64,000 bases of DNA, taken from positions 3,407,953 to 3,471,952 of the forward strand of contig CBDAOQ010000003.1 in assembly GCA_965198125.1 (NCBI GenBank). The letters run 5' to 3'. Shown piece by piece: positions 1 through 62,129 of the stretch. The DNA is from Candidatus Versatilivorator sp. GTDB lineage: Bacteria; Acidobacteriota; Terriglobia; Versatilivoradales; Versatilivoraceae. The notes beneath the pieces are model-generated. The model saw only the letters and a program-made list of their open reading frames with translations, searched no databases and had not been told where the DNA came from. Made by a program: the position numbers and the translations under genes. The stretch's first letter is position 1. Each line of letters opens with the position of its first letter.

Positions 1-468
1 GTCCCCCGCGGATTTCATTCCAAGGTTCTTGTCACAAAGCACGTAGAGAATTTGACCCAGGATCTCGGCCGGGTTGAGATTGCGCCTGAATCCCAGCATG
101 GCCGTCAAACAGAAACGGCAATCGAGAGGGCAGCCCGCCTGAGTCGAAATACACAGGGTATTGCGTTTCCGCTCGGGGATCAGGACGCACTCGATCTTCT
201 CCCCGTCCCGGAGTTCGAGCAGGTATTTCTCGGTACCGTCGGTGGCTCGCTGACGCCTTTGGAGCCGGGGCAGGGAAATGGTGCAGCTCGCAAGCTTCCG
301 CCTCAGGGATTTGGAGAGTTCGGTCATCGATCCCGGGTTCAGTTGGCGCCGGCGGTAGAGGGCCTCAAAGAGCTGGCGCCCGTGATAGGGATTCTCACCC
401 CAATCGACCATCAGGCCAGCCAGTTCAGCGGCGGTCAACCCCAATAGTTCGCCCCTGGAAGCATCCAT
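1..468 (-). CDS. rlmN: 23S rRNA (adenine2503-C2)-methyltransferase RlmN, N-terminal part (radical SAM); 3' end lies beyond window start
   Basis: Minus-strand translation from ATG at 468: MDASRGELLGLTAAELAGLMVDWGENPYHGRQLFEALYRRRQL...IECVLIPERKRNTLCISTQAGCPLDCRFCLTAM. This is the typical RlmN N-terminus with the CxxxCxxC radical-SAM cluster. It is absent from the ORF track because it runs off the edge. Confidence 0.85.
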   Translation of the reverse strand, partial: MDASRGELLGLTAAELAGLMVDWGENPYHGRQLFEALYRRRQLNPGSMTELSKSLRRKLASCTISLPRLQRRQRATDGTEKYLLELRDGEKIECVLIPERKRNTLCISTQAGCPLDCRFCLTAMLGFRRNLNPAEILGQILYVLCDKNLGMKSAGD

Positions 469-703
469 TGGCAGAAGTCTCCTGTTTTCAACCGGTTCAA
501 GCCGGGATTGTGATCATAGCAGAGGGATTGGAGACCGCGCAATCGCCGCCGGAGGCTCAGAGCCGCCATTTGGCGCCGGTGGTGTTCGGTGCTATATTTC
601 CACCTGATTTCAAAAGTTTGGCCCACAGCGTGAAGTGCTCAGGTTTTTGGGCGGGGGGCGAGGCAACCTGACCTGAAGGTGGGCCCGGTGCGTCAGAGGT
701 ATC

Positions 704-1855
704 ATGATCGGGAAGCTGCATTTTCGGCGTCTACGGTTGCGGAATTGGAGAAACTTCACCGGCGTGGAGGTCGCCATCCAGGACCGTCTGTTTCTCATAG
801 GCCCTAACGCGTCGGGAAAATCCAACTTCCTGGATGTTTTCCGCTTTCTGCGGGATCTGGCTGCGTCAGGCGGCGGCTTTCAAGAGGCGGTCGCCCGACG
901 GGGCGGGGTGAGCACCATCCGCTGCCTGGCGGCCCGCAGGCAGTCCGATGTCGAAATTGGGGTTGAATTGACCGAGGGAAAGGGAGGGAGTCAGTGGAAC
1001 TACGAGTTGGGCTTCCACCAGGACCAACAAAGACGGCCTCTGGTCTGCAAGGAGCGTGTCTTGCGCGATTGCGTGGAACTGGTCAAACGTCCCAATGAGG
1101 AAGACTACGCCGATCCCGAGCGTCTCACCCAAACCTGCCTGGAGCAGGTGAGCGTCAACCGGCCCTTCCGCGAGTTGGCTGCCTTCTTCGCATCCATTCG
1201 CTACCTGCACATCGTGCCCCAACTCATCCGCGACCCCGACCGTTCGGGGGGAGCCTTGAACGATCCGTTCGGCGGCGATTTCCTGGAGCAGGTCGCCGGG
1301 GCCCGGGAGCGCACCCGCAATGCGCGTCTCCGACGGATCGGGAAGGTCCTTCAGATGGCCGTACCCCAACTGGAAGCCATCGATCTATGGCACGATTCCA
1401 GGGGGATGCCTCATCTTCGCGGCAAATACCGGCACTGGCGCCCCCAGGGGGCCTGGCAAACCGAAGAGCAGTTCTCCGACGGCACCCTGAGGCTCATCGG
1501 CCTGCTCTGGTCTGCCATGGAGAAGGAGGGGCCGCTGTTGCTTGAGGAACCCGAACTCTCACTCCACCCCGGCATTGTCCGGGCGCTGCCGCGGATGCTG
1601 GCCCGGGTCCAGCGCGGAACCGGGAGACAGACCCTTCTGAGCACCCACTCTCCGGAGTTGCTGCGCGACAAGGAAATTGGTCCCCAGCAGACGCTGGTCG
1701 TCGTTCCAGGGGCCGAAGGCTCCCAGGCGATTCCCCTGGAGTCGAACGGCAAAGCCCGCGAGTTGCTGGAAAGCGGGTTCTCCCTTCTCGATGGCCTGAT
1801 TTCCAGGGACCGGTTTGAGCACTCGGGTCAACGCCCTTTGTTCGGGGAGGGGTGA
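704..1855 (+). CDS. ABC/AAA-family ATPase (AAA_21/AAA_15-like, AriA-like), no nuclease domain
   Basis: Walker A GPNASGKSN near the N-terminus. Signature-like SDGTLRLIGLL, Walker B LLLEEPELSLHP and H-loop LLSTHSPELL near the C-terminus. Sits immediately upstream of a second ATPase gene. Confidence 0.7.
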   Translation: MIGKLHFRRLRLRNWRNFTGVEVAIQDRLFLIGPNASGKSNFLDVFRFLRDLAASGGGFQEAVARRGGVSTIRCLAARRQSDVEIGVELTEGKGGSQWNYELGFHQDQQRRPLVCKERVLRDCVELVKRPNEEDYADPERLTQTCLEQVSVNRPFRELAAFFASIRYLHIVPQLIRDPDRSGGALNDPFGGDFLEQVAGARERTRNARLRRIGKVLQMAVPQLEAIDLWHDSRGMPHLRGKYRHWRPQGAWQTEEQFSDGTLRLIGLLWSAMEKEGPLLLEEPELSLHPGIVRALPRMLARVQRGTGRQTLLSTHSPELLRDKEIGPQQTLVVVPGAEGSQAIPLESNGKARELLESGFSLLDGLISRDRFEHSGQRPLFGEG

Positions 1856-1959
1856 AGGGGGTTGACGGGGCTTGCCGACCTGCATTCCGTCCAATATCCG
1901 CTTACCAATGAATCATGGCGGATGCAAGATGTTATGCTGATGGCCAAACCGAGGTGGCC

Positions 1960-3651
1960 ATGATCCGACGCCTAACCATCAAGAATTTCAAGCGGTTTCC
2001 AGAGCACCGATTCGAGTTGGCTGATTCCGTCGTGCTTGCCGGTCCCAACAACTCGGGGAAGTCCACACTACTACAGGCCATCGCCACCTGGAAGCTGGGA
2101 CTCGACCGATGGATCGCCCAACGTAAGGGAAACAAGAAGAGCAGGGCGGTCAGGCGGTCAGGGGTCTCTATCACCCGCGCTGACTTCACCCCGGTCCCAC
2201 TCCGCGAGATGAACCTCCTGTGGGAAGATCGCCGCGTTTCGGGCGGATCGGGAGAACCTCGTTTAATCGAGATAATCGTTGAAGGACACAACGATGGGAA
2301 ACCTTGGGAATGTGGACTGGAGTTTCAATACGCCAATCCCGAATTAGTCTATGTGCGGCCGCGTAATGCGAAAAAGCTTGACCAGTCTGCCATGGTTGCC
2401 TTCCCTCCACAGGCTGCCGAGAACCTTGGCGTCGTCTATGTGCCGCCACTATCGGGTATCGAGCGCGATGAGCCTCGCCGCGACAGGGGCATGCAGGATT
2501 TGCTTGTCGGTCAAGGCCGTCCCGGCGAAATACTGCGCAATCTCCTTTGGGAAATTGAGAAAAACGGGGAGAAGGAGGAGTGGAAGGAATTAGGCGCACA
2601 TATTCGTGACCTGTTCGAACTTGAACTGCAGAGACCTTCCTATTCGCCGGCTCAACCCTACATCGTGTGCGAATACCTGGAACCGGGACACTCACGACAG
2701 CTTGATCTGTCCAATGTCGGCAGTGGAACCCTTCAAGTGCTTCTCCTATTGGCGTTTTTGTATGCGCGTCCGGCAACCGTAATCCTCCTTGATGAACCCG
2801 ACGCCCACCAGCACGTCATTCTGCAAAAGCAGGTTTATGACCTGATTCGCAAGGTCGCTCACGAGCGCCGCGGACAAATGATTGTCGCTACTCATTCCGA
2901 AGTGGTCCTCGACGCAACCGAGCCGACCCGAGTGCTCGGGTTTTTCGGTGCGGCCCCGCGACCTCTGGCCAGCCAGACTGAGCGCGACCGAGTGCGTGAA
3001 GCGCTCAAGCGTGTCACCACCACGGATCTCCTTCTGGGTCGGGTGGCAGAGGCGGTGCTATATATCGAGGGTGAGACGGACGAGAGAATCTTGGCTGAGT
3101 GGGCACGGAAACTCAATCATCCAGTGCAGGAAGTTCTCAAACAGGCCGTGGTGCACTGGCTTGGTGGGCGAAGCCTTCGCGAGGCAAAGGAACACTTCTT
3201 TGCCATGAGGGCGGCGTTCCCCAATTTGCGTGCGCTTTGCCTTCTTGATGGAGACAATCGTGACCAACCGGATACGGAGACAACAGTCGCGGGTCTGGTC
3301 GTCCTGCGATGGACGCGCTACGAGATTGAGAACTATCTCTTACAGCCGGGAGCCATAAAGCGATTCGTGGAATTGCCGCCGTTAATGGAGCCACAAGTCG
3401 ATGAGGCCTTTTGGAAACAGGTACCACCGGGCACTGATCTTTTCGGAAAACATGTCTCGTTGGTGCGGGTCAAGGCCAGCACCGAGTTTCTGGTTCCTCT
3501 ACTTGACGATGTCGGTAGAAATACTCCCAAAAAAGACCTGTACCTGCTGGCAAACCTGATGACTAAAGAGGAAATTCATCCGGAGGTGCATCAAAAGCTC
3601 GATCGCATCGCGGTGATACTTAAACCGACGCAAGGAGAATCGTTGCCTTGA
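1960..3651 (+). CDS. OLD-family-like ATP-dependent endonuclease: N-terminal ABC ATPase plus C-terminal TOPRIM/DUF4435-like domain
   Basis: Start at MIRRLTIKNF with RBS GAGGTGG upstream. Walker A GPNNSGKST and Walker B ILLDEPDAHQH. C-terminal YIEGETDERIL (EGxxD TOPRIM-like), LLDGDNRDQPD (DxD) and RYEIENYL. Lower GC than the flanks. Confidence 0.65.
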   Translation: MIRRLTIKNFKRFPEHRFELADSVVLAGPNNSGKSTLLQAIATWKLGLDRWIAQRKGNKKSRAVRRSGVSITRADFTPVPLREMNLLWEDRRVSGGSGEPRLIEIIVEGHNDGKPWECGLEFQYANPELVYVRPRNAKKLDQSAMVAFPPQAAENLGVVYVPPLSGIERDEPRRDRGMQDLLVGQGRPGEILRNLLWEIEKNGEKEEWKELGAHIRDLFELELQRPSYSPAQPYIVCEYLEPGHSRQLDLSNVGSGTLQVLLLLAFLYARPATVILLDEPDAHQHVILQKQVYDLIRKVAHERRGQMIVATHSEVVLDATEPTRVLGFFGAAPRPLASQTERDRVREALKRVTTTDLLLGRVAEAVLYIEGETDERILAEWARKLNHPVQEVLKQAVVHWLGGRSLREAKEHFFAMRAAFPNLRALCLLDGDNRDQPDTETTVAGLVVLRWTRYEIENYLLQPGAIKRFVELPPLMEPQVDEAFWKQVPPGTDLFGKHVSLVRVKASTEFLVPLLDDVGRNTPKKDLYLLANLMTKEEIHPEVHQKLDRIAVILKPTQGESLP

Positions 3652-4283
3652 AGCCTTGTACCGGATCGTCAACGCGTATACCAACGCTACGAAAATCCCC
3701 TGGATTCGCTCGACCCATTTGACAATCGATCGTAAGACGGTTGTGAAAAGTCTAGGGCTCTTTGTTGGCTGAACGCTCTGATAGCGACCGACAGATCGTG
3801 TTCGTCAGCGGTCCGCGAACAGTGGCGGAACCCACTAGTGACGTCGTCACCCCCACACCTACCTCAACTCGTCTCCGGCGAGCTTGCAAAGGAGGTTCGC
3901 CTATCGCTGGATACGATTCGAGGTTGGATTGGTATTCTGTGCTCTTTCCATCTAGGTTTTCCGGTCAGGCCCTGGTTGAAGGATTTGGGTTTACCTTTCT
4001 GTCGCAACTCCAGGGAAGGTCCCGACTCCGAGTTCTGGCCGGACTTGACGGAGGTTCGCCAACGCCCCTTGGGGTCTGGACGGGAACAAGATATAAGGTA
4101 CTGATTATTAAACGTTTAATCCTCAGGGCCCGCTAAGATATGATCGCAGTTTTCCGTTGAAACCCCACCGGGCTTATGTTAGCTTGAGCCTGCACCTACG
4201 CGGCCCCACGGATTCTCTCACTGCCGCAGCCACAGTCGAGTCTTCCGGAACAATCCAACTCGCACCTCCAGGACACGGACCCC

Positions 4284-5552
4284 ATGGAGAATGTCAAAAA
4301 GGACGTGTTGGACAATGGGCTCACGGTTCTCACCGAGCGCATGCCTCACGTCCGTTCCGTTTCCATGGGGGTCTGGGTGAAGACGGGCTCCCGCAGCGAA
4401 ACCCCTGAGTTGAACGGTGTGGCTCATTTCGTCGAGCACCTGCTGTTCAAGGGTACCCGGCGGCGCACGGCCGAAGAGATTGCCAAGGAGGTGGACTCCA
4501 TCGGCGGCCACCTGGATGCCTTTACGGGCAAGGAAACCGTCTGTTACAGCGCCAAAGTCCTGGATGACCACCTTCCCCTGGCCTTCGATATTCTGTCCGA
4601 TCTCGTGCTCAATCCCCGGTTCGATCCCGACGAGATGGAGCGGGAACGCTCGGTGGTTCTGGAGGAGATCAAGATGGAGGAGGACATTCCGGACGATCTG
4701 GTTTGCGAGATCTTCACTCAGAACTTCTGGAAGAATCAACCTCTGGGACGGCCGATCCTGGGAACCAGCCAGACAGTCAGCCGCCTGGACCGAGACAGGG
4801 TGGCCGATTTTTTCCGCGAGCACTACACTCCGGACCAACTGGTGATCTCGGCCGCGGGCCACCTGGACCACCGCAACATCCTGGACCTGGCCTTGCGGCA
4901 TTTCGGCCACCTGGAACGCCGGTCGAACGGACGAGCCCTGGCTCCGGCCAAACCTTGCAATCCCATCTCATTGCGCACCAAGAAAGAGCTGGAACAAGCC
5001 CACGTTTGCCTGGGTGTTCCCGGCTGCGCCCTCGCCGACCAAAACCGGTTCGCGTTCTACCTCTTGAGCACGATCCTGGGTGCCGGCATGAGTTCCCGGC
5101 TCTTTCAGAACATCAGGGAAAAACAGGGCTTGGCCTATGCCATCTTCTCGGGGTTGAGTTCATTCCGGGACACCGGCTGTCTGTTGGTCTATGCGGGAAC
5201 CTCTCTGAAAAACGTCGGAAGGGTGGTGAGTTCCATTGTGCGGGAGTTGCGTGATCTTAAAGAGCGTCAAGTGGGAACCGAGGAACTGCGGCGAGCCAAG
5301 GATCACATGAAGGGGAGCCTTTTGCTGAGCCTGGAATCCAGTTCCAGCCGCATGTCCAACCTGGCGCGGCAGGAACTCTGTTTCGGGGATTACAAACCGC
5401 TGCAGGAGACGATACTGGATATCGATCGAGTTTCCGCAGATGAAATTCAGGCCTTGGCCCATTCGGTTTTTGACACTCCTCAGGTGGCTCTCACCGTGCT
5501 GGGCAACCTGGATGGAGTCCGGTTTACCCGTGCCGACCTGGATTGCGGATGA
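4284..5552 (+). CDS. M16 family zinc peptidase (insulinase/pitrilysin-like)
   Basis: Inverted zinc motif HFVEHLLFKG (HxxEH) near the N-terminus; 422 aa; coding-like composition. Confidence 0.85.
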   Translation: MENVKKDVLDNGLTVLTERMPHVRSVSMGVWVKTGSRSETPELNGVAHFVEHLLFKGTRRRTAEEIAKEVDSIGGHLDAFTGKETVCYSAKVLDDHLPLAFDILSDLVLNPRFDPDEMERERSVVLEEIKMEEDIPDDLVCEIFTQNFWKNQPLGRPILGTSQTVSRLDRDRVADFFREHYTPDQLVISAAGHLDHRNILDLALRHFGHLERRSNGRALAPAKPCNPISLRTKKELEQAHVCLGVPGCALADQNRFAFYLLSTILGAGMSSRLFQNIREKQGLAYAIFSGLSSFRDTGCLLVYAGTSLKNVGRVVSSIVRELRDLKERQVGTEELRRAKDHMKGSLLLSLESSSSRMSNLARQELCFGDYKPLQETILDIDRVSADEIQALAHSVFDTPQVALTVLGNLDGVRFTRADLDCG

Positions 5553-5679
5553 GCGGTCAGCCGAGGCAAGGTCAAGGCCGGTCAGGGATTTCAGGTAACG
5601 TTGAAGGAAAGGCCGCGGCGCTGGCGGACGGTCCTCAGGCGATGCATGCAAGTTTTCCGCGGTGAAGCCGGACGGGGCA

Positions 5680-6459
5680 ATGGTGGCGGTTACCGTTTCA
5701 ATACTGGGCAGCGGGAGTTCCGGCAACTGTACCTTCATTGCCACCGGAAGAGTCAAGCTGCTTCTGGATGCCGGATTCAGTCGGGCCCAGACGGCCAGGA
5801 GGCTGTTGGCCATCGGAGAATCGCTGGAAGACATCGATGCCCTGGTCATTTCACACGAGCACTCCGACCACGTCAAGGGCTTGGCGGGGCTCCTGAAGAC
5901 CTGTGATATTCTCACCTTCGTCGGAGAGGCGACTTACGAGGCGCTTTCACTCAAGCCTGTGCTGAAGAGGAGGGAATGCCTCAGGGCCGGAGAGTCGTTT
6001 CAGCTTGGCGACGTGACGATTTCCCCGTTTTCCGTTCCCCACGACGCTGCCGACCCCCTGGCATTCAACCTGGAAGCCGAGGGAATCAAAATCTCTCATG
6101 TGATGGACCTGGGCGTCCTCACCGAATTGGTGCGCCGCCGAATGGCGGGAAGTGACCTGCTGGTCCTGGAATCCAACCACGACCTGGAAATGTTGCGTCT
6201 CAGTCCCTACCCCTGGGCGGTGAAGCAACGAATCATGAGTCGTCATGGCCATCTTTCCAACGAAAGCGTCGGGAAATTCTTTGAGGAGGACTTTGACGGC
6301 AAAGCCGCATACATCCTGCTGGCTCACCTGAGCGAGAACAACAACCACCCCGATATCGCACGCATGGTCGCCCGCAAAGCCTTGGAAAAGAGAGGGTTTG
6401 ACTTGGATAATCTGCTCTTGGCCTCTCGGTCCGGTCCGAGCCGGGTCATCCACCTTTAG
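5680..6459 (+). CDS. MBL-fold metallo-hydrolase (YycJ/PhnP-like)
   Basis: HEHSDHVKG (HxHxDH) metallo-beta-lactamase motif; about 260 aa. Confidence 0.8.
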   Translation: MVAVTVSILGSGSSGNCTFIATGRVKLLLDAGFSRAQTARRLLAIGESLEDIDALVISHEHSDHVKGLAGLLKTCDILTFVGEATYEALSLKPVLKRRECLRAGESFQLGDVTISPFSVPHDAADPLAFNLEAEGIKISHVMDLGVLTELVRRRMAGSDLLVLESNHDLEMLRLSPYPWAVKQRIMSRHGHLSNESVGKFFEEDFDGKAAYILLAHLSENNNHPDIARMVARKALEKRGFDLDNLLLASRSGPSRVIHL

Positions 6460-56574: not shown

Positions 56575-56946
56575 ATGGGAGCGACGCAGGTAACGGTCAG
56601 AATCACCAACCCCGCGGAGCCGGACAGGTTTTGGGAGGGGTTGTTTCTGGTGGATATCGGGGCCACCGATTCCCTTGTCCCCAGACAGCATCTTGAGGCT
56701 ATCGGCCTCCAGCCCAGGGGCCGAAGGACTTACGAGCTTGCCGACGGCAGTGAACTCGCCGTCGACGTCACGGTGGCGGAGATAGAGTTCATGGGCGAGG
56801 TCATCGGCGGGACGGTGATATATGGCGAGTCCAACGCGGAGCCGCTGCTGGGCTTAACGGCGCTGGAATCCGTGGGCATTGAGGTGGACCCGGTGAGCCA
56901 GCGGTTGAAGAGGCTGCCGGCCGTGCGGCTCAAGGGGCTGGTGTGA
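56575..56946 (+). CDS. retropepsin-like (clan AA) aspartic protease
   Basis: FLVDIGATDSLVP matches the D(T/S)G(A/S) active-site context of retroviral-type aspartyl proteases. 123 aa; stop overlaps the hsdS start (ATGA). Confidence 0.55.
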   Translation: MGATQVTVRITNPAEPDRFWEGLFLVDIGATDSLVPRQHLEAIGLQPRGRRTYELADGSELAVDVTVAEIEFMGEVIGGTVIYGESNAEPLLGLTALESVGIEVDPVSQRLKRLPAVRLKGLV

Positions 56947-58205
56947 CGACAAGGGAGACAACCCGCCTTGCGGACATGTGCGACCTGACAGCGGAGCCGG
57001 TAAGGCCCGGCACTCGGCCGGAGGCACTCTATCTCGGTCTGGAGCATCTTGCTTCCGGGCGGCTTGTTCGAATTGGCGGCGGTCGGGCGTCAGAGATGCG
57101 AAGCACCACATCCGCGTTTCAAGCCGATGACGTGCTGTACGGAAAACTCCGTCCGTATCTCGACAAGGCCATATTGGCTGACGAGCCGGGTGTCTGCACG
57201 ACGGAACTGCTCGTACTCCGGGCCAAGGCCAACGTAGACCCTCGATTCCTCGCTGTATTTCTTCATTCTCGTGGATTCCTCGAGTATGCGGTTGCGGGAA
57301 CAACGGGTGTCCAGCATCCAAGGACGTCATGGGCACACATTCGAGAGTACGTGCTCCCTGCCCTCACGTTAACTGAACAGCAACGAATTGCCGACCTACT
57401 TTGGCTTGTGCATGGGGCAATCAGCCGGTCAGAGAAGCTGGTCGACGAAGGCCAAGCCCTCAAGCGCGCCGCCATGCAAACACTGTTCACGCGCTGCCTG
57501 CGCGGCGAGGCTCAGAAAGAAACCGAGATCGGCCCGGTGCCGGAGAGTTGGGATATTGCGCCAATAGCCTCAGTCGCTAGGGTGAAGGGTGGAAAACGAA
57601 TGCCCAAAGGCGTTGCTTTGACAAATGAAGATACCGGAAAGCCCTACATCCGCGTAACGGATTTCAGGGACCATGGAGTGGATGTTAATCAGTTGCTGTT
57701 TGTACCAAGGGGTTACGAGTCGACGATATCACGCTACATCATCTCCATCGACGACGTGTACATCTCGATTGCCGGGACCATTGGCCTAGTCGGACAAGTT
57801 CCACAGGTTCTTGATGGTGCGAATCTGACCGAGAACGCTGCGAAAATCTCGTTGATCGATCAAAGCGTAAACACACGTTTCTTGATGTACGCACTTGCCT
57901 CAGATACCTGCCAATCGCAGATCGCACAATCTACAGCTACGAACGCACAGCCGAAGCTCGCACTGGTTCGTATAGAACAGATCCAGTTACCAATTCCTCC
58001 GACATTGGACGAACAGAACGAGATCGTCGCCATTCTCGACGCCATCGACCGCAAGATCGACCTGCACCGCAGGAAACGTGCCGTCCTCGACGATCTGTTC
58101 AAGGCACTCCTTCACAAGCTGATGACGGGTGAAATCCGTGTCGCAGATCTGGGTCTGTCAGCGCTAAGGGAAACGGCCTTATCTTCACAAACTTTTAGCG
58201 GCTAA
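56943..58205 (+). CDS. hsdS: Type I restriction-modification specificity subunit S
   Basis: Two target-recognition domains with conserved spacers (YLGLEHL, DVLYGKLRPYLDK, second TRD and LFKALLHKLMTGEIRV). Confidence 0.8.
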   Translation: MTTRETTRLADMCDLTAEPVRPGTRPEALYLGLEHLASGRLVRIGGGRASEMRSTTSAFQADDVLYGKLRPYLDKAILADEPGVCTTELLVLRAKANVDPRFLAVFLHSRGFLEYAVAGTTGVQHPRTSWAHIREYVLPALTLTEQQRIADLLWLVHGAISRSEKLVDEGQALKRAAMQTLFTRCLRGEAQKETEIGPVPESWDIAPIASVARVKGGKRMPKGVALTNEDTGKPYIRVTDFRDHGVDVNQLLFVPRGYESTISRYIISIDDVYISIAGTIGLVGQVPQVLDGANLTENAAKISLIDQSVNTRFLMYALASDTCQSQIAQSTATNAQPKLALVRIEQIQLPIPPTLDEQNEIVAILDAIDRKIDLHRRKRAVLDDLFKALLHKLMTGEIRVADLGLSALRETALSSQTFSG

Positions 58206-58244: not shown

Positions 58245-61200
58245 ATGGATTTTCCCGATCTCCCACATCTGCGACAGCTTCAGAAAGACTTATGGCAATG
58301 GCCCAGTTCTCGTGCCACGGTCATGGTCGGAGCCGGGTTTAGCCGAAATTCAGTGCCTTTGCCTGGCGTGAGCACGAGCTTCCCAACTTGGCCTGAATTG
58401 GCCCAGGCCATGTTCGATGAGATTTACCCCGCATCGCCGAACGAGACAGCGGAACAAAAGCGAAGCAGAGAAAAACAATTCGACCGCAGTAACGCGCTCA
58501 GACTTGCCAGTGAATACGCGGCGACATTTGATCGCCAGAGACTTAAGTCCTTAATCCGCACAAGGATCCCTGATATCGATCACCAGCCGGGCAAAATTCA
58601 CAACCTGCTTCTCCAACTCCCATGGAAAGACGTCTTTACAACAAATTACGACACGCTTCTTGAGCGAACGGAGGTGCCGGGAAGGGTATATCAACCGGTG
58701 ACAACGGTACCCGAACTGACAACCGCGATTTCTCCAAGGATCATAAAACTACATGGCTCGTTTCCTTCCCTGACGCAATTCATCCTCACCGAAGAGGACT
58801 ACCGGTCTTACCCGAAAGACTTTGTGCTGTTTATCAACACCGTTCGCCAGTCACTGATCGAAAACACCTTCGTTTTAGTCGGCTTTTCGGGCGATGATCC
58901 GAATTTTTTGCAATGGACCGGTTGGATTCGGGATGAGCTTGGTAGTAACCATGCCCCTATCTATTTGGTCAGTCCTTTGTCATTAAGCAACGTGCAACGT
59001 TCGCTTCTCGCAAAACGGGGAGTAAAACCCATTGATCTCTCTCCCGTATTTTCGAGCAAAAATCGACCAGAAAGAATTCATGCATCCGCTGTCGAATGGT
59101 TTCTTCGCACTTTACTGGCAGCAAAGCCCCAACGACCGGATGCGTGGCTTAAAACCAAGAGGAGTGCCGCGGGAAACGCTGAGTTTGAACCTCCGATTCT
59201 TGTCAGCGGCTTCACCGAACCGGAAAAAGTTGATTTATCCGGCAGTTCTCAGAGTCCTCTGGACGAAGCTACCGTAATAAAGGTCATCAAGCGATGGCGT
59301 TTTGAGAGGAATCGTTATCCGGGATGGTTGATTCCAACGAACGAGATAAGATCTTTGCTTTGGCACGAAACGGGAGACTGGATAACGCCCCTTATCAAAT
59401 TTGCCGAAAACTGGCCGCCGGCCGATCGTCTTTTACTTTTTCGTGAGATTAACTGGCGGCTTGAAGTATCAATGATCCCGCTTTTTTCTGACTGGATAAC
59501 TCCGTTTGAGTCAGCAGTTGATGATCTATTTCCCAGCCTTAAAGATGGGATACCCATAAAGCCATCGGTCAAGGCAGTGAGGCCCATAAATGTTTCGAAT
59601 ACGGAAGTGCCTGAAGCGTGGCTGGAAATCGCCTTTGCGCTACTCCGCGAATCACGAGAAGACTATCACTCGGAGCGTTGGAACGCGTTCAATAACAAGA
59701 TTGGTCAAGTTGTAGGCAATTACCCGCAATTCACCGACAAGAATTATTACGAGCAGGCTTTATGGAGGATATGGAACATAGAGAGAAACCAAGCCAACGA
59801 TGTGCTTGCAAAATGGTCGCCTTCACCACATTCGCCCCTCGCCGTAATGTGGAAGGCAGGGCTTCTGGCCGAACTCGACGATTTAAACGAGGCGCGCTCT
59901 CTTCTACGAACCGCACTGCGAGAAATCAGAAAATCTCTCCATAACTCTCAAGGACGCAATATTGATCTGCTCTCGCTTGAAGGATGGTGTGCGTACTTAT
60001 TATTTACAAGCACGCTTTCGCTGGAAGGATCTGAAGGGCGGCAGCTCCAGGAAGAGTTCTCAGAGCGATGGCAGGAATTGGAAGCATGGGACTGTAGCCC
60101 TTGGCCGCTTAAGCAGTACTTCGACGCAATACTGTCGAAAACTCCACCCATCCCCCAAAAGCCAAAACAAATCGTCCGCAGCTTCGATCCCGGGCGTAGG
60201 ACTATCACTCACCATATTGGAAGTACCATAGGACCGTGGCTGCCCGCATTTGCTTGCATCCGGTTATACGAACAGGTTGGCATCCCCTTACACTTGCGCT
60301 GCTTCAACCTTTCAGGAAGCGCGCTGAGAAACGCGTGTAAATGGGTAGCTCCCTTCACCGGCTTCTGGAGCCCGGCACTTCTTATTCGTGCCGGTAAAAG
60401 AGACGATCTGACAAAGCATGACATTATGAATCGTGTGCAAGTTGCCGCGATGAAACCGGATCTTGCGAGAAGCCTGAACAAATGGGCGATGCGCGCATTG
60501 AAACGCGAGATTTCGTCTCTGAGCGGAAACGTTACACGGACATCCGGTCAAGAATCATTACTGGAAGTACTGCCTGAAGTCTTGTCAAGACTGGCGTTCA
60601 AGTTGGAATCGTCTGATCTCCAAGAGGCGTTTTCCGTGGCCTTGGGGCTTCATGCGCAACCTGGTATCGCCAGTAATATCAGCCTTCATCGATCGTGTAA
60701 ACCTTGGTTTGAGCGATTGTTTGAAGCCGCTGATGACAGACAACTTCTCGTATGGCTTCCCGAATTGATTCAGTTTCCGCTAAGTGTTGGAGGTGTTGGA
60801 AGTGATCGACTCTCGAATCCGTATCCTCACCCTTGGCCTGACCCGATGACACATTTTCCAATAGAACGATTACGTATTGCCGATGACTTGTCTTCCGAAC
60901 TTGAAGCTGAAATTAATGAGTCAACTGAGTGGCTCTTGGAGCGTGCCAAGAGCGAACTGGGCGAAGAACGTTGCAGAGCAATGATGCGTCTCATTGACCT
61001 TTTCGACACCAAACTAATGACGGAGGAACAAAGAAATCGTCTAGGTGCATTGCTATGGGAGAAAACCAGCGAATACGGTTTGCCTGATTTGCCGGATCTT
61101 AACTGTTTCAGCTACTTGCATTTACCCTCGCCTGAAAAAGTTGATGTCGTCTCGAAAGTTAATGCACACATACTTAACATCGCGCCAATTCGGTCCGTAT

Positions 61201-62129
61201 CAATTGACACCAAGGGAACGATCTCCATATCAAGACAAGCAACGGCAGATCCGATGATTTTTAATGCGGCATTTGCTTCAAAGGCCGCCGTTAATATTCC
61301 CTACGAACCGACGGGGATCATTGAATGGAGTTGGGACGAGGCGAAGAAACTGTGGGAAAGATCGAAAGAATGGTGGGATAACGAAAAAATCGCGTTGTCC
61401 ATCGAGAAGTCTTCACCCTTTCTTGGGACCGAGCATATATCAGACAATCTTGAGAGGGTGGGTACGTTTTTGGCACGAGCCGTATTGCCAAAAATGGACT
61501 CGGCAAGTGAGGATGAATGGAACAGTGTGCTTGCGTTTTTTTCCGAGACTCGGAAACGCGGAGTGTATCTGACCACGGTATTACCGTACGTCCTTCTCCA
61601 TCGTTCCAGCGAAAGAGAGAAAGTTATTGAAACGGTTCTCGATGACCTGTCTTCAGATGATGAGAAGGCTGTACAAGCGAGTGCAAGAGCTATTCGGCAT
61701 TGGGTTCATTTAGCCGTCGCGGGGTTTTTGGACATTCCACCGAAAACAGTGATTGACGAATTGATACGGCGGGTCGTATTCAGGCGACCTGAAGGGACCC
61801 AGACTTGCTTGCATCAATTGGCAGTTCTCCTAATCGAAAAACCCGATTTCGTCAATTCTGGACAAGTGAATCTCGTTGTTGCGAGTATAACACCATGGAG
61901 TCAGGCAACCTGTCTTCCGCTCTCCGAAGAAAGGAATGGCGATTTTCCTGAAGAGGAAAGACCCGAAATTCGCGCTCTTCTCGGAAGGTTGGCCTCTGCG
62001 CTCAGCATCTGGCTGAAGAAGAGAATTCCCAATCAACCAGAACCCCCGGGAATTTCTCGTTTGAGGCAATCGTACAAATCAGACCCTCTCCCAGAGGTTC
62101 GACGAGCTTTTGACACATGGAAGCAATGA
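58245..62129 (+). CDS. SIR2-domain (DSR2-like defense-associated sirtuin) large protein: N-terminal SIR2 NADase-like domain plus about 1000-aa helical C-terminal region
   Basis: VMVGAGFS (Gly-rich NAD loop), TTNYDTLLE with Asn134, IIKLHGS with His170, VGFSGDDPNF. The Asn/His positions match the catalytic N133/H171 spacing of DSR2. GC about 50%, below the flanks. Confidence 0.75.
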   Translation: MDFPDLPHLRQLQKDLWQWPSSRATVMVGAGFSRNSVPLPGVSTSFPTWPELAQAMFDEIYPASPNETAEQKRSREKQFDRSNALRLASEYAATFDRQRLKSLIRTRIPDIDHQPGKIHNLLLQLPWKDVFTTNYDTLLERTEVPGRVYQPVTTVPELTTAISPRIIKLHGSFPSLTQFILTEEDYRSYPKDFVLFINTVRQSLIENTFVLVGFSGDDPNFLQWTGWIRDELGSNHAPIYLVSPLSLSNVQRSLLAKRGVKPIDLSPVFSSKNRPERIHASAVEWFLRTLLAAKPQRPDAWLKTKRSAAGNAEFEPPILVSGFTEPEKVDLSGSSQSPLDEATVIKVIKRWRFERNRYPGWLIPTNEIRSLLWHETGDWITPLIKFAENWPPADRLLLFREINWRLEVSMIPLFSDWITPFESAVDDLFPSLKDGIPIKPSVKAVRPINVSNTEVPEAWLEIAFALLRESREDYHSERWNAFNNKIGQVVGNYPQFTDKNYYEQALWRIWNIERNQANDVLAKWSPSPHSPLAVMWKAGLLAELDDLNEARSLLRTALREIRKSLHNSQGRNIDLLSLEGWCAYLLFTSTLSLEGSEGRQLQEEFSERWQELEAWDCSPWPLKQYFDAILSKTPPIPQKPKQIVRSFDPGRRTITHHIGSTIGPWLPAFACIRLYEQVGIPLHLRCFNLSGSALRNACKWVAPFTGFWSPALLIRAGKRDDLTKHDIMNRVQVAAMKPDLARSLNKWAMRALKREISSLSGNVTRTSGQESLLEVLPEVLSRLAFKLESSDLQEAFSVALGLHAQPGIASNISLHRSCKPWFERLFEAADDRQLLVWLPELIQFPLSVGGVGSDRLSNPYPHPWPDPMTHFPIERLRIADDLSSELEAEINESTEWLLERAKSELGEERCRAMMRLIDLFDTKLMTEEQRNRLGALLWEKTSEYGLPDLPDLNCFSYLHLPSPEKVDVVSKVNAHILNIAPIRSVSIDTKGTISISRQATADPMIFNAAFASKAAVNIPYEPTGIIEWSWDEAKKLWERSKEWWDNEKIALSIEKSSPFLGTEHISDNLERVGTFLARAVLPKMDSASEDEWNSVLAFFSETRKRGVYLTTVLPYVLLHRSSEREKVIETVLDDLSSDDEKAVQASARAIRHWVHLAVAGFLDIPPKTVIDELIRRVVFRRPEGTQTCLHQLAVLLIEKPDFVNSGQVNLVVASITPWSQATCLPLSEERNGDFPEEERPEIRALLGRLASALSIWLKKRIPNQPEPPGISRLRQSYKSDPLPEVRRAFDTWKQ

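What the first reader, a model, noticed from the sequence alone, without database searches (positions are those of the whole stretch)
704..3651. Tandem ABC-ATPase pair with a C-terminal OLD/TOPRIM-like nuclease: a PARIS/OLD-like defense module of unusual architecture
Two adjacent genes both encode AAA_21/AAA_15-type ABC ATPases with Walker A, signature and Walker B motifs. Only the second (578 aa) continues into a TOPRIM-like domain (YIEGETDERIL, DGDNRDQPD, RYEIENYL), reminiscent of OLD nucleases, GajA and AriB/DUF4435. Known OLD-family systems are single-gene (class 1), OLD+UvrD (class 2), GajA+GajB (Gabija) or AriA+AriB (PARIS, sometimes fused). An extra stand-alone AriA-like ATPase upstream of an ATPase-TOPRIM fusion is not a configuration I recognise. 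The second gene has lower GC than the genome, and the pair sits between core genes (rlmN and an M16 peptidase), consistent with an acquired island.
Basis: partly seen in the sequence, partly recalled or inferred. Interest (0 to 1): 0.7.

Follow-up and report, generated by a model that had tools for sequence, protein, structure and literature searches.

The report
Lone HEC-01A ATPase beside OLD/PARIS-like nuclease
The two neighbouring ATPase genes are real and the second does end in an OLD/PARIS-type TOPRIM nuclease domain, but they are most likely two separate anti-phage-type genes left side by side, not a new two-ATPase system.

Summary

The pair is not a conserved module. Of 63 P2-family loci, only the closest relative has an intact P1-type gene next to P2. 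One third have P2 near Hma components, usually as a single gene between DUF1156 and DUF499. Outside this lineage, all 7 P1-type genes with enough downstream sequence are followed by a HEC-01B TOPRIM gene. Here that partner is missing.

Sister genomes carry P1 alone at the same rlmN-M16 site, under purifying selection (dN/dS about 0.15). P2 lies in a roughly 2.3-kb presence/absence block with GC3 0.60 against about 0.73-0.75.

Best reading: a partnerless HEC-01A beside an autonomous, uncharacterised OLD/PARIS-like ATPase-nuclease. A functional P1-P2 partnership is not excluded (about 0.1). Interest is moderate to low.

The parts
704..1855 (+). P1: HEC-01A-type ABC ATPase (383 aa) without its HEC-01B partner
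   Evidence: PADLOC HEC-01A PDLC04180 E=6.3e-147, residues 6-368 against profile 2-369/382. Pfam AAA_21 1.3e-35. dN/dS 0.135-0.172, with dS equal to the flanking core genes.
800..823 (+). P1 Walker A (GPNASGKS, aa 33-40)
   Evidence: Invariant in the alignment of lone and partnered homologues; coordinates.
1535..1555 (+). P1 Walker B (LLLEEPE, aa 278-284). The signature FSDGTLRL is at 1472-1495 and the H-loop STHSP at 1640-1654.
   Evidence: Invariant across the 8 aligned homologues; coordinates.
1856..1959 (+). P1-P2 spacer (104 nt) with a GAGGTG Shine-Dalgarno-like element just upstream of ATG 1960. The left edge of the P2 presence/absence block lies within about 10 nt after the P1 stop.
   Evidence: Alignment with L001, L067 and L068; sequence shown. 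No terminator-like site was found between the genes.
1960..3651 (+). P2: single-polypeptide ABC ATPase plus DUF4435/OLD-type TOPRIM nuclease (563 aa; the mechanical ORF starts at 1915)
   Evidence: The family is 68-77% identical across phyla and all members start at MIRR. The full-length model's best matches are Thermus OLD 6p74 (E=1.3e-8) and GajA 8u7i (8.7e-8).
1960..2964 (+). P2 ABC ATPase domain (aa 1 to about 335): Walker A GPNNSGKST 2041-2067, signature SNVGSGTLQ 2710-2736, Walker B ILLDEPD 2782-2802, H-loop ATHSE 2887-2901
   Evidence: Pfam AAA_21 1e-21, AAA_15 1e-20, SMC_N 5.7e-10. Motifs are invariant in 49 homologues. Coordinates.
3049..3369 (+). P2 TOPRIM core (aa about 364-470) with acidic residues E370 (3067-3069), D374 (3079-3081), D430 (3247-3249), D432 (3253-3255), E455 (3322-3324) and E457 (3328-3330), plus invariant W451
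3370..3624 (+). P2 C-terminal helical region that follows the TOPRIM core
   Evidence: Helices 474-554 in the models. Foldseek aligns the whole 220-aa region with class 2 OLD C-terminal catalytic regions (6njv, 6nk8; E about 1e-4, TM about 0.5).
3652..4150 (.). Non-coding tail of the P2 block (GC about 0.55), absent from sister genomes that lack P2. It contains a palindrome at 4101-4126. In another sample of the same species, two transposase genes are inserted in this spacer.
   Evidence: Alignment. L065 carries two DDE transposases between P2 and M16. Palindrome. No Rfam family matched.

Best explanation
The locus holds two separate genetic units, not one system.

(1) P2 is an autonomous single-gene ABC ATPase-TOPRIM nuclease of the OLD/PARIS superfamily. 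It has the class 1 OLD / merged AriAB / HEC-04 type of architecture, and its TOPRIM domain is closest in sequence to AriB (DUF4435). Inferred mechanism: the ATPase domain senses a phage-derived cue and uses ATP binding or hydrolysis to switch on the fused two-metal TOPRIM nuclease. The nuclease then cuts host or phage nucleic acid and aborts the infection. The most likely target is tRNA/RNA, as for AriB. DNA nicking, as for OLD and GajA, is the main alternative.

(2) P1 is a HEC-01A ABC ATPase that has lost its usual HEC-01B TOPRIM partner. It has been kept under purifying selection at the rlmN-M16 site in this Versatilivoraceae-like acidobacterial lineage, with or without P2.

Both gene families are typical cargo embedded in Hma (helicase-methylase-ATPase) defence islands. 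Their adjacency here is best explained as what remains of such an island, or as successive insertions at one site.

Shown here: domain identities, fold, conserved catalytic residues, gene-neighbourhood statistics, selection and the indel. Inferred: defence function, activation logic, substrate and the island-decay origin.
For: P1 identity: HEC-01A E=6e-147.

Usual context of P1-type genes: Hma helicase, then HEC-01A, then HEC-01B, with Hma components alongside, in L070-L073, L076, L077 and L007. The partners in L070 and L071 match HEC-01B PDLC04194 at E about 5e-66. There is no HEC-01B ORF or remnant in the window, and no Hma component anywhere in the 64 kb.

P1 alone at the same locus: L067, L068 and L069, with ATPase motifs intact and dN/dS 0.135-0.172.

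P2 autonomy: 59 of 63 loci have no intact P1-type gene within about 6 kb. In L066, P2 is a single gene between DUF1156 and DUF499. 21 of 63 loci carry Hma components.

P2 block: a roughly 2.3-kb indel relative to sister genomes, with GC3 0.60 against 0.72-0.755.

Decayed-island precedent: L074 has a NOV_C fragment, then a HEC-01A fragment, then an intact P2.

TOPRIM evidence. Nearest in sequence to AriB: AriAB matched by 18 of 36 domain-only members and AriB by 7 of 36, none matching Old or GajA; Pfam DUF4435 matched by 4 of 81 relatives, best E=7e-6.

Literature: merged ariAB genes exist and AriB is a two-metal TOPRIM tRNA nuclease (PMC11464382, PMC9122126, PMC12409363). A single-gene ATPase-TOPRIM embedded in Hma (HEC-04) defends, and needs both active sites (10.1101/2024.01.29.577857).
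Against: No experiment links P2's family to defence. It has no dedicated PADLOC model: the best full-length hits are partial (NsnB 3e-24, AriA 7e-23, AriAB 1e-19).

P2 itself fails the Pfam DUF4435 and OLD-like_TOPRIM cut-offs, and a domain-only sequence profile finds nothing in the PDB.

The pair has co-resided since before the split between the window's genome and L001: same site, alignable spacer, and P2 dS about 1.0 against flank dS of 0.76-0.88. So a functional link in this lineage is not excluded.

HEC-01-type ATPases neighbour P2 homologues in 17 of 63 loci, including a compact cassette of P2, a HEC-01A-like ATPase and a DUF4276 protein away from any Hma (L075). That could reflect more than shared island residence.

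The substrate (RNA or DNA) is undetermined.

P1's role without a nuclease partner is unexplained, and a HEC-01B gene elsewhere in the genome cannot be ruled out from a 64-kb window.
Confidence: 0.68

Rival explanations
1. P1 and P2 form one functional two-ATPase system. Having lost HEC-01B, the HEC-01A ATPase now regulates or co-assembles with P2 and uses P2's fused TOPRIM domain as its nuclease.
For: The genes are on the same strand with a 104-nt spacer and no terminator-like site. The intact pair is conserved in L001 at about 80% protein identity, apparently by vertical descent. HEC-01B and P2's C-terminal domain share the same motif trio, EGxxD, DxD and ExExxL. HEC-01A-like ATPases lie next to P2 homologues in 17 of 63 loci, 5 of them without Hma components nearby, including the three-gene cassette in L075.
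Against: P1 is retained under equal purifying selection in sister genomes that lack P2. P2 has no intact P1-type neighbour within about 6 kb in 59 of 63 loci and is a lone embedded gene in Hma. In 7 loci where P2 has a HEC-01A-like neighbour, that ATPase has its own HEC-01B. P1 and P2 have different GC3 (0.755 against 0.603). The two ATPase domains are only distantly related: BLASTP finds just the Walker A and Walker B regions.
Confidence: 0.12
2. P2 is autonomous, as in the main reading, but acts on DNA like classical OLD, GajA or HEC-04 nucleases, nicking or cleaving phage or host DNA, and does not act on tRNA.
For: Foldseek's five best matches for the C-terminal region are all class 2 OLD catalytic regions (E about 1e-4, TM about 0.5). 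The best full-length structural and sequence-profile match is Thermus class 1 OLD 6p74. P2 homologues are embedded in DNA-modification-based Hma systems.
Confidence: 0.3
3. The genes are not immune genes. They are housekeeping SMC/RecF-like ATPases involved in DNA repair or chromosome maintenance that happen to lie next to rlmN.
For: P1 is vertically inherited with host-like GC3 and the same dS as core genes. Weak SMC_N and RecF hits occur at the Walker A region. HEC-01 gave no phage protection when tested (10.1101/2024.01.29.577857).
Against: The SMC and RecF hits cover only about 45 N-terminal residues. P2 is absent from close relatives. P2 has a patchy cross-phylum distribution at 68-77% identity. 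P2 sits inside Hma islands beside SIR2-HerA, HEC-01 and other AAA_21-ATPase genes. This is the pattern expected of mobile defence cargo.
Confidence: 0.07

Closest known systems
PARIS, merged ariAB form (ABC ATPase AriA fused to DUF4435 TOPRIM nuclease AriB)
   Different: P2 is 563 aa against a 694-position AriAB profile and matches only parts of it (68.8 bits). Pfam DUF4435 gives 11 bits against a 27-bit cut-off. The ATPase region, about 335 aa, is much shorter than AriA (464 aa in 8ux9). AriA's helical insertions and hexamer were not examined. In a fused protein the nuclease cannot be released as AriB is.
Class 1 OLD nucleases (phage P2 Old, Thermus scotoductus OLD, PDB 6p74)
   Same: Stand-alone gene of about 530-590 aa with an ABC ATPase followed by a TOPRIM plus helical catalytic region. 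It is the best full-length structural match (E=1.3e-8) and the best PDB sequence-profile match (7.6e-7).
   Different: Pfam OLD-like_TOPRIM is not reached (12.5-14.1 bits against 23.2). The PADLOC Old model matches only the ATPase ends. No member of the domain family matches Old models.
HEC-04 (Payne et al. 2024, bioRxiv 10.1101/2024.01.29.577857)
   Same: Single-gene ABC ATPase-TOPRIM fusion found embedded in Hma systems. It is experimentally protective, and both the ATPase and nuclease sites are required. P2 homologues occupy the same kind of embedded position.
   Different: It is a different sequence family. The HEC-04 model is absent from P2's 25 best full-length PADLOC hits and matches the C-terminal domain only weakly (E=0.0015-0.0016).
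HEC-01 (HEC-01A ABC ATPase plus HEC-01B TOPRIM protein)
   Same: P1 is a full-length HEC-01A (E=6e-147). Its relatives at 57-70% identity are standard HEC-01 pairs, most of them inside or beside Hma components.
   Different: In the window there is no HEC-01B and no Hma. The gene sits in a core-genome context and is inherited vertically. The tested HEC-01 representative showed no defence.
Gabija (GajA ATPase-TOPRIM plus GajB UvrD-like helicase)
   Different: There is no GajB or UvrD helicase next to P2 in the window. GajA HMM matches are weak and partial.

Membership tests
HEC-01 (PADLOC candidate system) | HEC-01A ABC ATPase | tested here: met
   P1 against PDLC04180: E=6.3e-147, full length.
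HEC-01 (PADLOC candidate system) | Adjacent HEC-01B TOPRIM gene | tested here: not met
   There is no room for it: P1 stop at 1855, P2 start at 1960. tblastn with two HEC-01B proteins finds no remnant in window 1-6000. Loci outside this lineage do have it.
HEC-01 (PADLOC candidate system) | Embedded within an Hma (helicase / DUF1156 methylase / DUF499 ATPase) system | tested here: not met
   No Hma helicase, DUF1156 or DUF499 match anywhere in the 64-kb window. The flanks are rlmN and an M16 peptidase.
PARIS (AriA/AriB or merged AriAB) | AAA_15 or AAA_21 ABC ATPase at the Pfam cut-offs (32 / 27 bits; rule from PMC9122126) | tested here: met
   P2 scores AAA_21 78.8 bits and AAA_15 75.2 bits.
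PARIS (AriA/AriB or merged AriAB) | DUF4435 (PF14491) at 27 bits or more | tested here: not met
   The P2 C-terminal domain scores 11 bits, E=0.35. Only 4 of 81 relatives match at E<=0.01, best 7e-6.
PARIS (AriA/AriB or merged AriAB) | Match to a merged AriAB profile | tested here: inconclusive
   PADLOC AriAB PDLC02981 gives 68.8 bits, E=1e-19, in two partial stretches, the best covering P2 261-483 against profile 303-529/694. The published cut-offs are 80 bits (AAA_15+DUF4435) or 20 bits (AAA_21+DUF4435), and which profile this PADLOC model corresponds to is unknown.
PARIS (AriA/AriB or merged AriAB) | AriB-like TOPRIM fold with two-metal acidic residues (E26, D30, D88, E90, E122 in AriB) | tested here: met
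PARIS (AriA/AriB or merged AriAB) | Trigger-dependent activation and tRNA cleavage | not testable with these tools
   This needs biochemistry and phage assays.
OLD family, class 1 | Single polypeptide with an N-terminal ABC ATPase and a C-terminal TOPRIM catalytic region, with no obligate partner gene | tested here: met
   Architecture. P2 is a lone gene in most of the 63 loci. The best full-length structural match is 6p74.
OLD family, class 1 | OLD-like_TOPRIM (PF20469) at 23.2 bits or more | tested here: not met
   12.5-14.1 bits, E=0.07-0.22. No relative matched it at E<=0.01.
OLD family, class 1 | Structural match of the TOPRIM plus helical catalytic region to solved OLD nucleases | tested here: met
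Gabija | GajB (UvrD-like helicase) encoded next to the ATPase-TOPRIM gene | tested here: not met
   No helicase gene flanks P2 in the window's genome.
HEC-04 | Strong match to the HEC-04 profile (PDLC04149) | tested here: not met
   E=0.0015-0.0016 on the C-terminal domain only. HEC-04 is not among P2's 25 best full-length hits.

The most novel reading that the evidence does not exclude
P2-type ATPase-TOPRIM proteins may cooperate with HEC-01A-type ATPases in a heteromeric two-ATPase OLD-like system. In this lineage the fused TOPRIM of P2 would have replaced HEC-01B. More broadly, a P2-like gene could be the missing component that explains why HEC-01 (A+B alone) showed no defence when tested. 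The recurrent proximity (17 of 63 loci), the cassette of P2, a HEC-01A-like ATPase and a DUF4276 protein away from Hma (L075), and the long co-residence of P1 and P2 in the window's genome and L001 leave this open.
Probability: 0.1. Interest if true: 0.65.

Novelty: new member of a known kind. Interest (0 to 1): 0.33.

Why it matters
P2 belongs to a large, strongly conserved family that is almost entirely known from uncultured bacteria. Its C-terminal domain alone defines 504 clusters at 50% identity. The family has the OLD/PARIS architecture and often sits at the embedding sites of Hma defence islands. Yet it has no dedicated PADLOC model, falls below the Pfam TOPRIM and DUF4435 cut-offs, and has never been tested. 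That makes it a reasonable candidate for a new clade of single-gene ATPase-nuclease defences, and a compact test case for how a fused sensor ATPase controls an AriB-like nuclease without releasing it. P1, a HEC-01A kept under purifying selection without any nuclease partner, is a small puzzle about what such sensor ATPases do alone. The headline claim of a new two-ATPase architecture does not hold up as a conserved system, so the finding is of moderate to low interest.

Tried and rejected
- Single-sequence HMM scans of the P2 C-terminal domain gave only sub-threshold hits (Pfam and PADLOC).
- A domain-only sequence profile (36 sequences) against all PDB sequences found nothing relevant.
- The promoter/terminator scan of 400-4400 gave counts at or below shuffled expectation and was uninformative.
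- Rfam at gathering thresholds on the whole window gave 0 matches.
- tblastn of P2 against the phage collection gave no match. Against plasmids it gave only 9 distant relatives at 22-27% identity, annotated 'AAA family ATPase', so there is no named relative.
- The search for direct or inverted repeats bounding the P2 block found only short, chance-level matches. A shared 'GTTGA' at both edges is too short to interpret.
- The search for a HEC-01B remnant and for Hma remnants in the window found none.
- The metagenome scan with P1 returned only 4 loci, so the partnered-versus-lone tally rests on 7 outside loci and 5 lineage loci.
- The idea that P1 is a decaying pseudogene was rejected: motifs are intact and dN/dS is about 0.15.
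- Gabija was rejected because there is no GajB.
- Two independent insertions of P2 at the same site are less parsimonious than one loss, but are not excluded. P2 identity between the window and L001 (81%) is only slightly above the best cross-phylum identities (76-77%).
Full report
OBSERVATION. The window carries two same-strand ORFs at 704-1855 (383 aa, P1) and 1915-3651. Homologues and database annotation start the second gene at ATG 1960 (563 aa, P2), with a GAGGTG element just upstream. Both pass the Pfam AAA_21 and AAA_15 cut-offs, and Walker A, signature, Walker B and H-loop motifs are intact. The flanking genes are rlmN (minus strand) and an M16 peptidase. P2 is GC-poor: GC 0.556 and GC3 0.603, against GC3 of 0.72-0.755 for P1 and the core neighbours.

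WHAT P1 IS. P1 matches PADLOC model HEC-01A (PDLC04180) end to end at E=6e-147. HEC-01 is a candidate system described by Payne et al. (bioRxiv 10.1101/2024.01.29.577857). It consists of an ABC ATPase (A) and a separate TOPRIM protein (B), was found embedded in Hma (helicase-methylase-ATPase) systems, and gave no protection against the phages tested. P1's relatives at 57-71% identity follow that description. In L070, L071, L072 and L073 the order is Hma SNF2/NOV_C helicase, HEC-01A (383 aa), a 201-207-aa ORF, then DUF1156 methylase; a UvrD-like helicase gene intervenes before DUF1156 in L073. L076, L077 and L007 also have HEC-01B directly downstream. The ORFs in L070 and L071 match HEC-01B PDLC04194 at E about 5e-66. 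So 7 of 7 loci outside this lineage with enough downstream sequence have the partner. In the window there is no room for it and no remnant, and no Hma component occurs anywhere in the 64 kb.

P1 IN ITS OWN LINEAGE. Other samples of the same species (L064, L065), three sister genomes (L067, L068, L069) and a more distant relative named Candidatus Versatilivoraceae (L001; Acidobacteriota) share the synteny glycosyltransferase, rlmN, P1, (P2), M16 peptidase, MBL hydrolase. P1 is present in all of them and never has HEC-01B. Its ATPase motifs are identical to those of partnered homologues, and divergence is concentrated in the last 45 or so residues. dN/dS is 0.135-0.172, and dS (0.53-0.77) equals that of the flanking core genes. 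P1 is therefore a vertically inherited, selected, partnerless HEC-01A, not a pseudogene.

WHAT P2 IS. P2 belongs to a family that stays 68-77% identical across Acidobacteriota, Latescibacterota, Chloroflexota, Proteobacteria, Planctomycetota, Gemmatimonadota and others. The N-terminal 335 or so residues form the ABC ATPase. On its own, the C-terminal 243 residues give only sub-threshold hits: OLD-like_TOPRIM E=0.07, DUF4435 0.35, HEC-04 0.0016, AriAB 0.0019, AriB 0.014 and Old 0.049. An exhaustive search with this domain found 504 representative clusters, mostly at the C-terminus of 540-600-aa proteins. Among 81 relatives, 4 match Pfam DUF4435 (best E=7e-6) and none matches OLD-like_TOPRIM. 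Among 36 domain-only sequences, 18 match PADLOC AriAB and 7 match AriB, and none matches Old or GajA.

IS THE PAIR A SYSTEM? In 63 genome loci that encode P2 homologues, an intact adjacent P1-type gene occurs only in L001. L022 has a frame-shifted HEC-01A-like remnant upstream. L002 and L007 have P1-type genes about 5.5 kb away, on the other side of a DUF1156 methylase. Hma components lie within 6 kb in 21 loci, and P2 is typically wedged between DUF1156 and DUF499, as in L066. About 36 loci show none of these markers. Sister genomes keep P1 alone. Relative to them, P2 lies in a discrete block of about 2.3 kb, roughly window 1860-4150: P1's stop is followed within about 10 nt by the conserved M16 upstream sequence. 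L001 is the outgroup by core-gene identity and carries P2 at the same site, with dS about 1.0 against 0.76-0.88 for the flanks. The parsimonious history is that the pair is ancestral here and P2 was lost once. P1 and P2 also differ in GC3, and their ATPase domains are only remotely similar. These facts argue for two independent units.

WHY THE TWO ARE NEIGHBOURS. HEC-01A-like or other AAA_21 ATPases lie near P2 homologues in 17 of 63 loci, 12 of them with Hma components nearby. Seven of the 17 also have a HEC-01B. Hma embedding sites carry arrays of such cargo, including SIR2-HerA in L066 and another AAA_21 ATPase with a small PIN-like ORF upstream of P2 in several loci. L074 shows a decayed island in the same gene order as the window: NOV_C fragment, HEC-01A fragment, intact P2, ATPase fragment. 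L007 shows the intact order HEC-01A, HEC-01B, DUF1156, another ATPase, P2. A deletion in such an island, or serial insertion at one site, would produce the window's arrangement. This step is inference. L075 is a caution: there P2, a HEC-01A-like ATPase and a DUF4276 protein form a compact cassette between two Lipocalin_5 ORFs with no Hma in sight. Some linkage beyond shared island residence therefore cannot be excluded.

MECHANISM (INFERRED). In PARIS, the AriA ATPase assembly holds AriB inactive. Binding of a phage trigger such as Ocr, together with ATP, releases AriB, which dimerises and cleaves tRNA, stopping translation (PMC11464382, PMC12409363). Merged ariAB genes exist (PMC9122126, PMC11464382). 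HEC-04, a single-gene ATPase-TOPRIM embedded in Hma, protects E. coli and needs both active sites. By analogy, P2 most likely acts as a self-contained sensor and effector: ATP-dependent sensing by the ABC domain switches on the fused two-metal TOPRIM nuclease. Sequence affinity favours an AriB-like RNA target, and structural affinity to OLD keeps DNA as a serious alternative. P1's role without a nuclease is unknown. Its retention without P2 argues against an obligate partnership.

COMPARISON AND NOVELTY. P2 has the architecture of class 1 OLD, merged PARIS and HEC-04, but it fails the family-specific sequence thresholds for each. It is a new, untested clade within a known kind. P1 is a known candidate family in an unusual partnerless, core-genome state. 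The proposed new two-ATPase architecture is not supported as a conserved system.

CAVEATS. The locus sample is dominated by metagenome-assembled genomes, many from a few projects. Flanks were limited to 6-10 kb. Neighbour detection used tblastn with a handful of marker proteins. The structures are predictions. No functional data exist for either family in this form.

SIDE OBSERVATIONS. A full-length DSR2 homologue (E=1.8e-218) follows a type I R-M specificity gene at 56.9-62.1 kb, in the lowest-GC stretch of the window. The P2-M16 spacer is an insertion site for two transposases in another sample of the same species.

Noticed in passing
window 58245-62129 (+), with 56943-58205 (+) upstream: A 1294-aa protein with an N-terminal SIR2_2 domain matches PADLOC Dsr2 at full length (E=1.8e-218). 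It directly follows a type I R-M specificity subunit (Methylase_S, 8e-25) and lies in the lowest-GC stretch of the window (about 0.49 against a mean of 0.608). This is a second, unrelated and already known defence gene.
   Followed up: partly
L065 10059-12776 (equivalent to the window spacer 3652-4283): In another sample of the same species, two DDE transposase genes (DDE_Tnp_1 and DDE_3) are inserted between P2 and the M16 peptidase gene. The spacer downstream of P2 is therefore an active insertion site.
   Followed up: no
L075 10001-13641: A P2 homologue, a HEC-01A-like ATPase (374 aa) and a DUF4276 protein (221 aa) form a compact three-gene cassette between two Lipocalin_5 ORFs in an alphaproteobacterial genome, with no Hma genes within 10 kb. 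A P2 to HEC-01A-like order also appears in L004, L006, L012, L015, L018 and L051, with a HEC-01B detected in L004, L012, L015 and L018.
   Followed up: partly
L074 8248-11961: A decayed island in a Bryobacterales genome: a NOV_C fragment (the end of an Hma helicase), a 131-aa AAA_21 fragment, an intact P2 homologue, then a 79-aa AAA_15 fragment. P2 outlives its island neighbours.
   Followed up: partly
window 5662-6459 (+): An MBL-fold hydrolase conserved in all relatives carries a precomputed Pfam Anti-Pycsar_Apyc1 hit alongside Lactamase_B hits. It sits in a core-gene context next to purB and purS and is probably a housekeeping phosphodiesterase, not an anti-defence gene.
   Followed up: no
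L066 1361-7654: In a Latescibacterota Hma island, a SIR2_2 plus HerA-like (DUF87) gene pair lies between a short DUF1156 fragment and the full DUF1156 methylase gene, upstream of the P2 homologue. This illustrates multiple embedded cargo in a single Hma island.
   Followed up: no
window 4101-4126: A 26-nt AT-rich palindrome (CTGATTATTAAACGTTTAATCCTCAG) lies near the right edge of the P2 block, just before the conserved M16 upstream sequence. Its function is unknown and there is no Rfam match.
   Followed up: no
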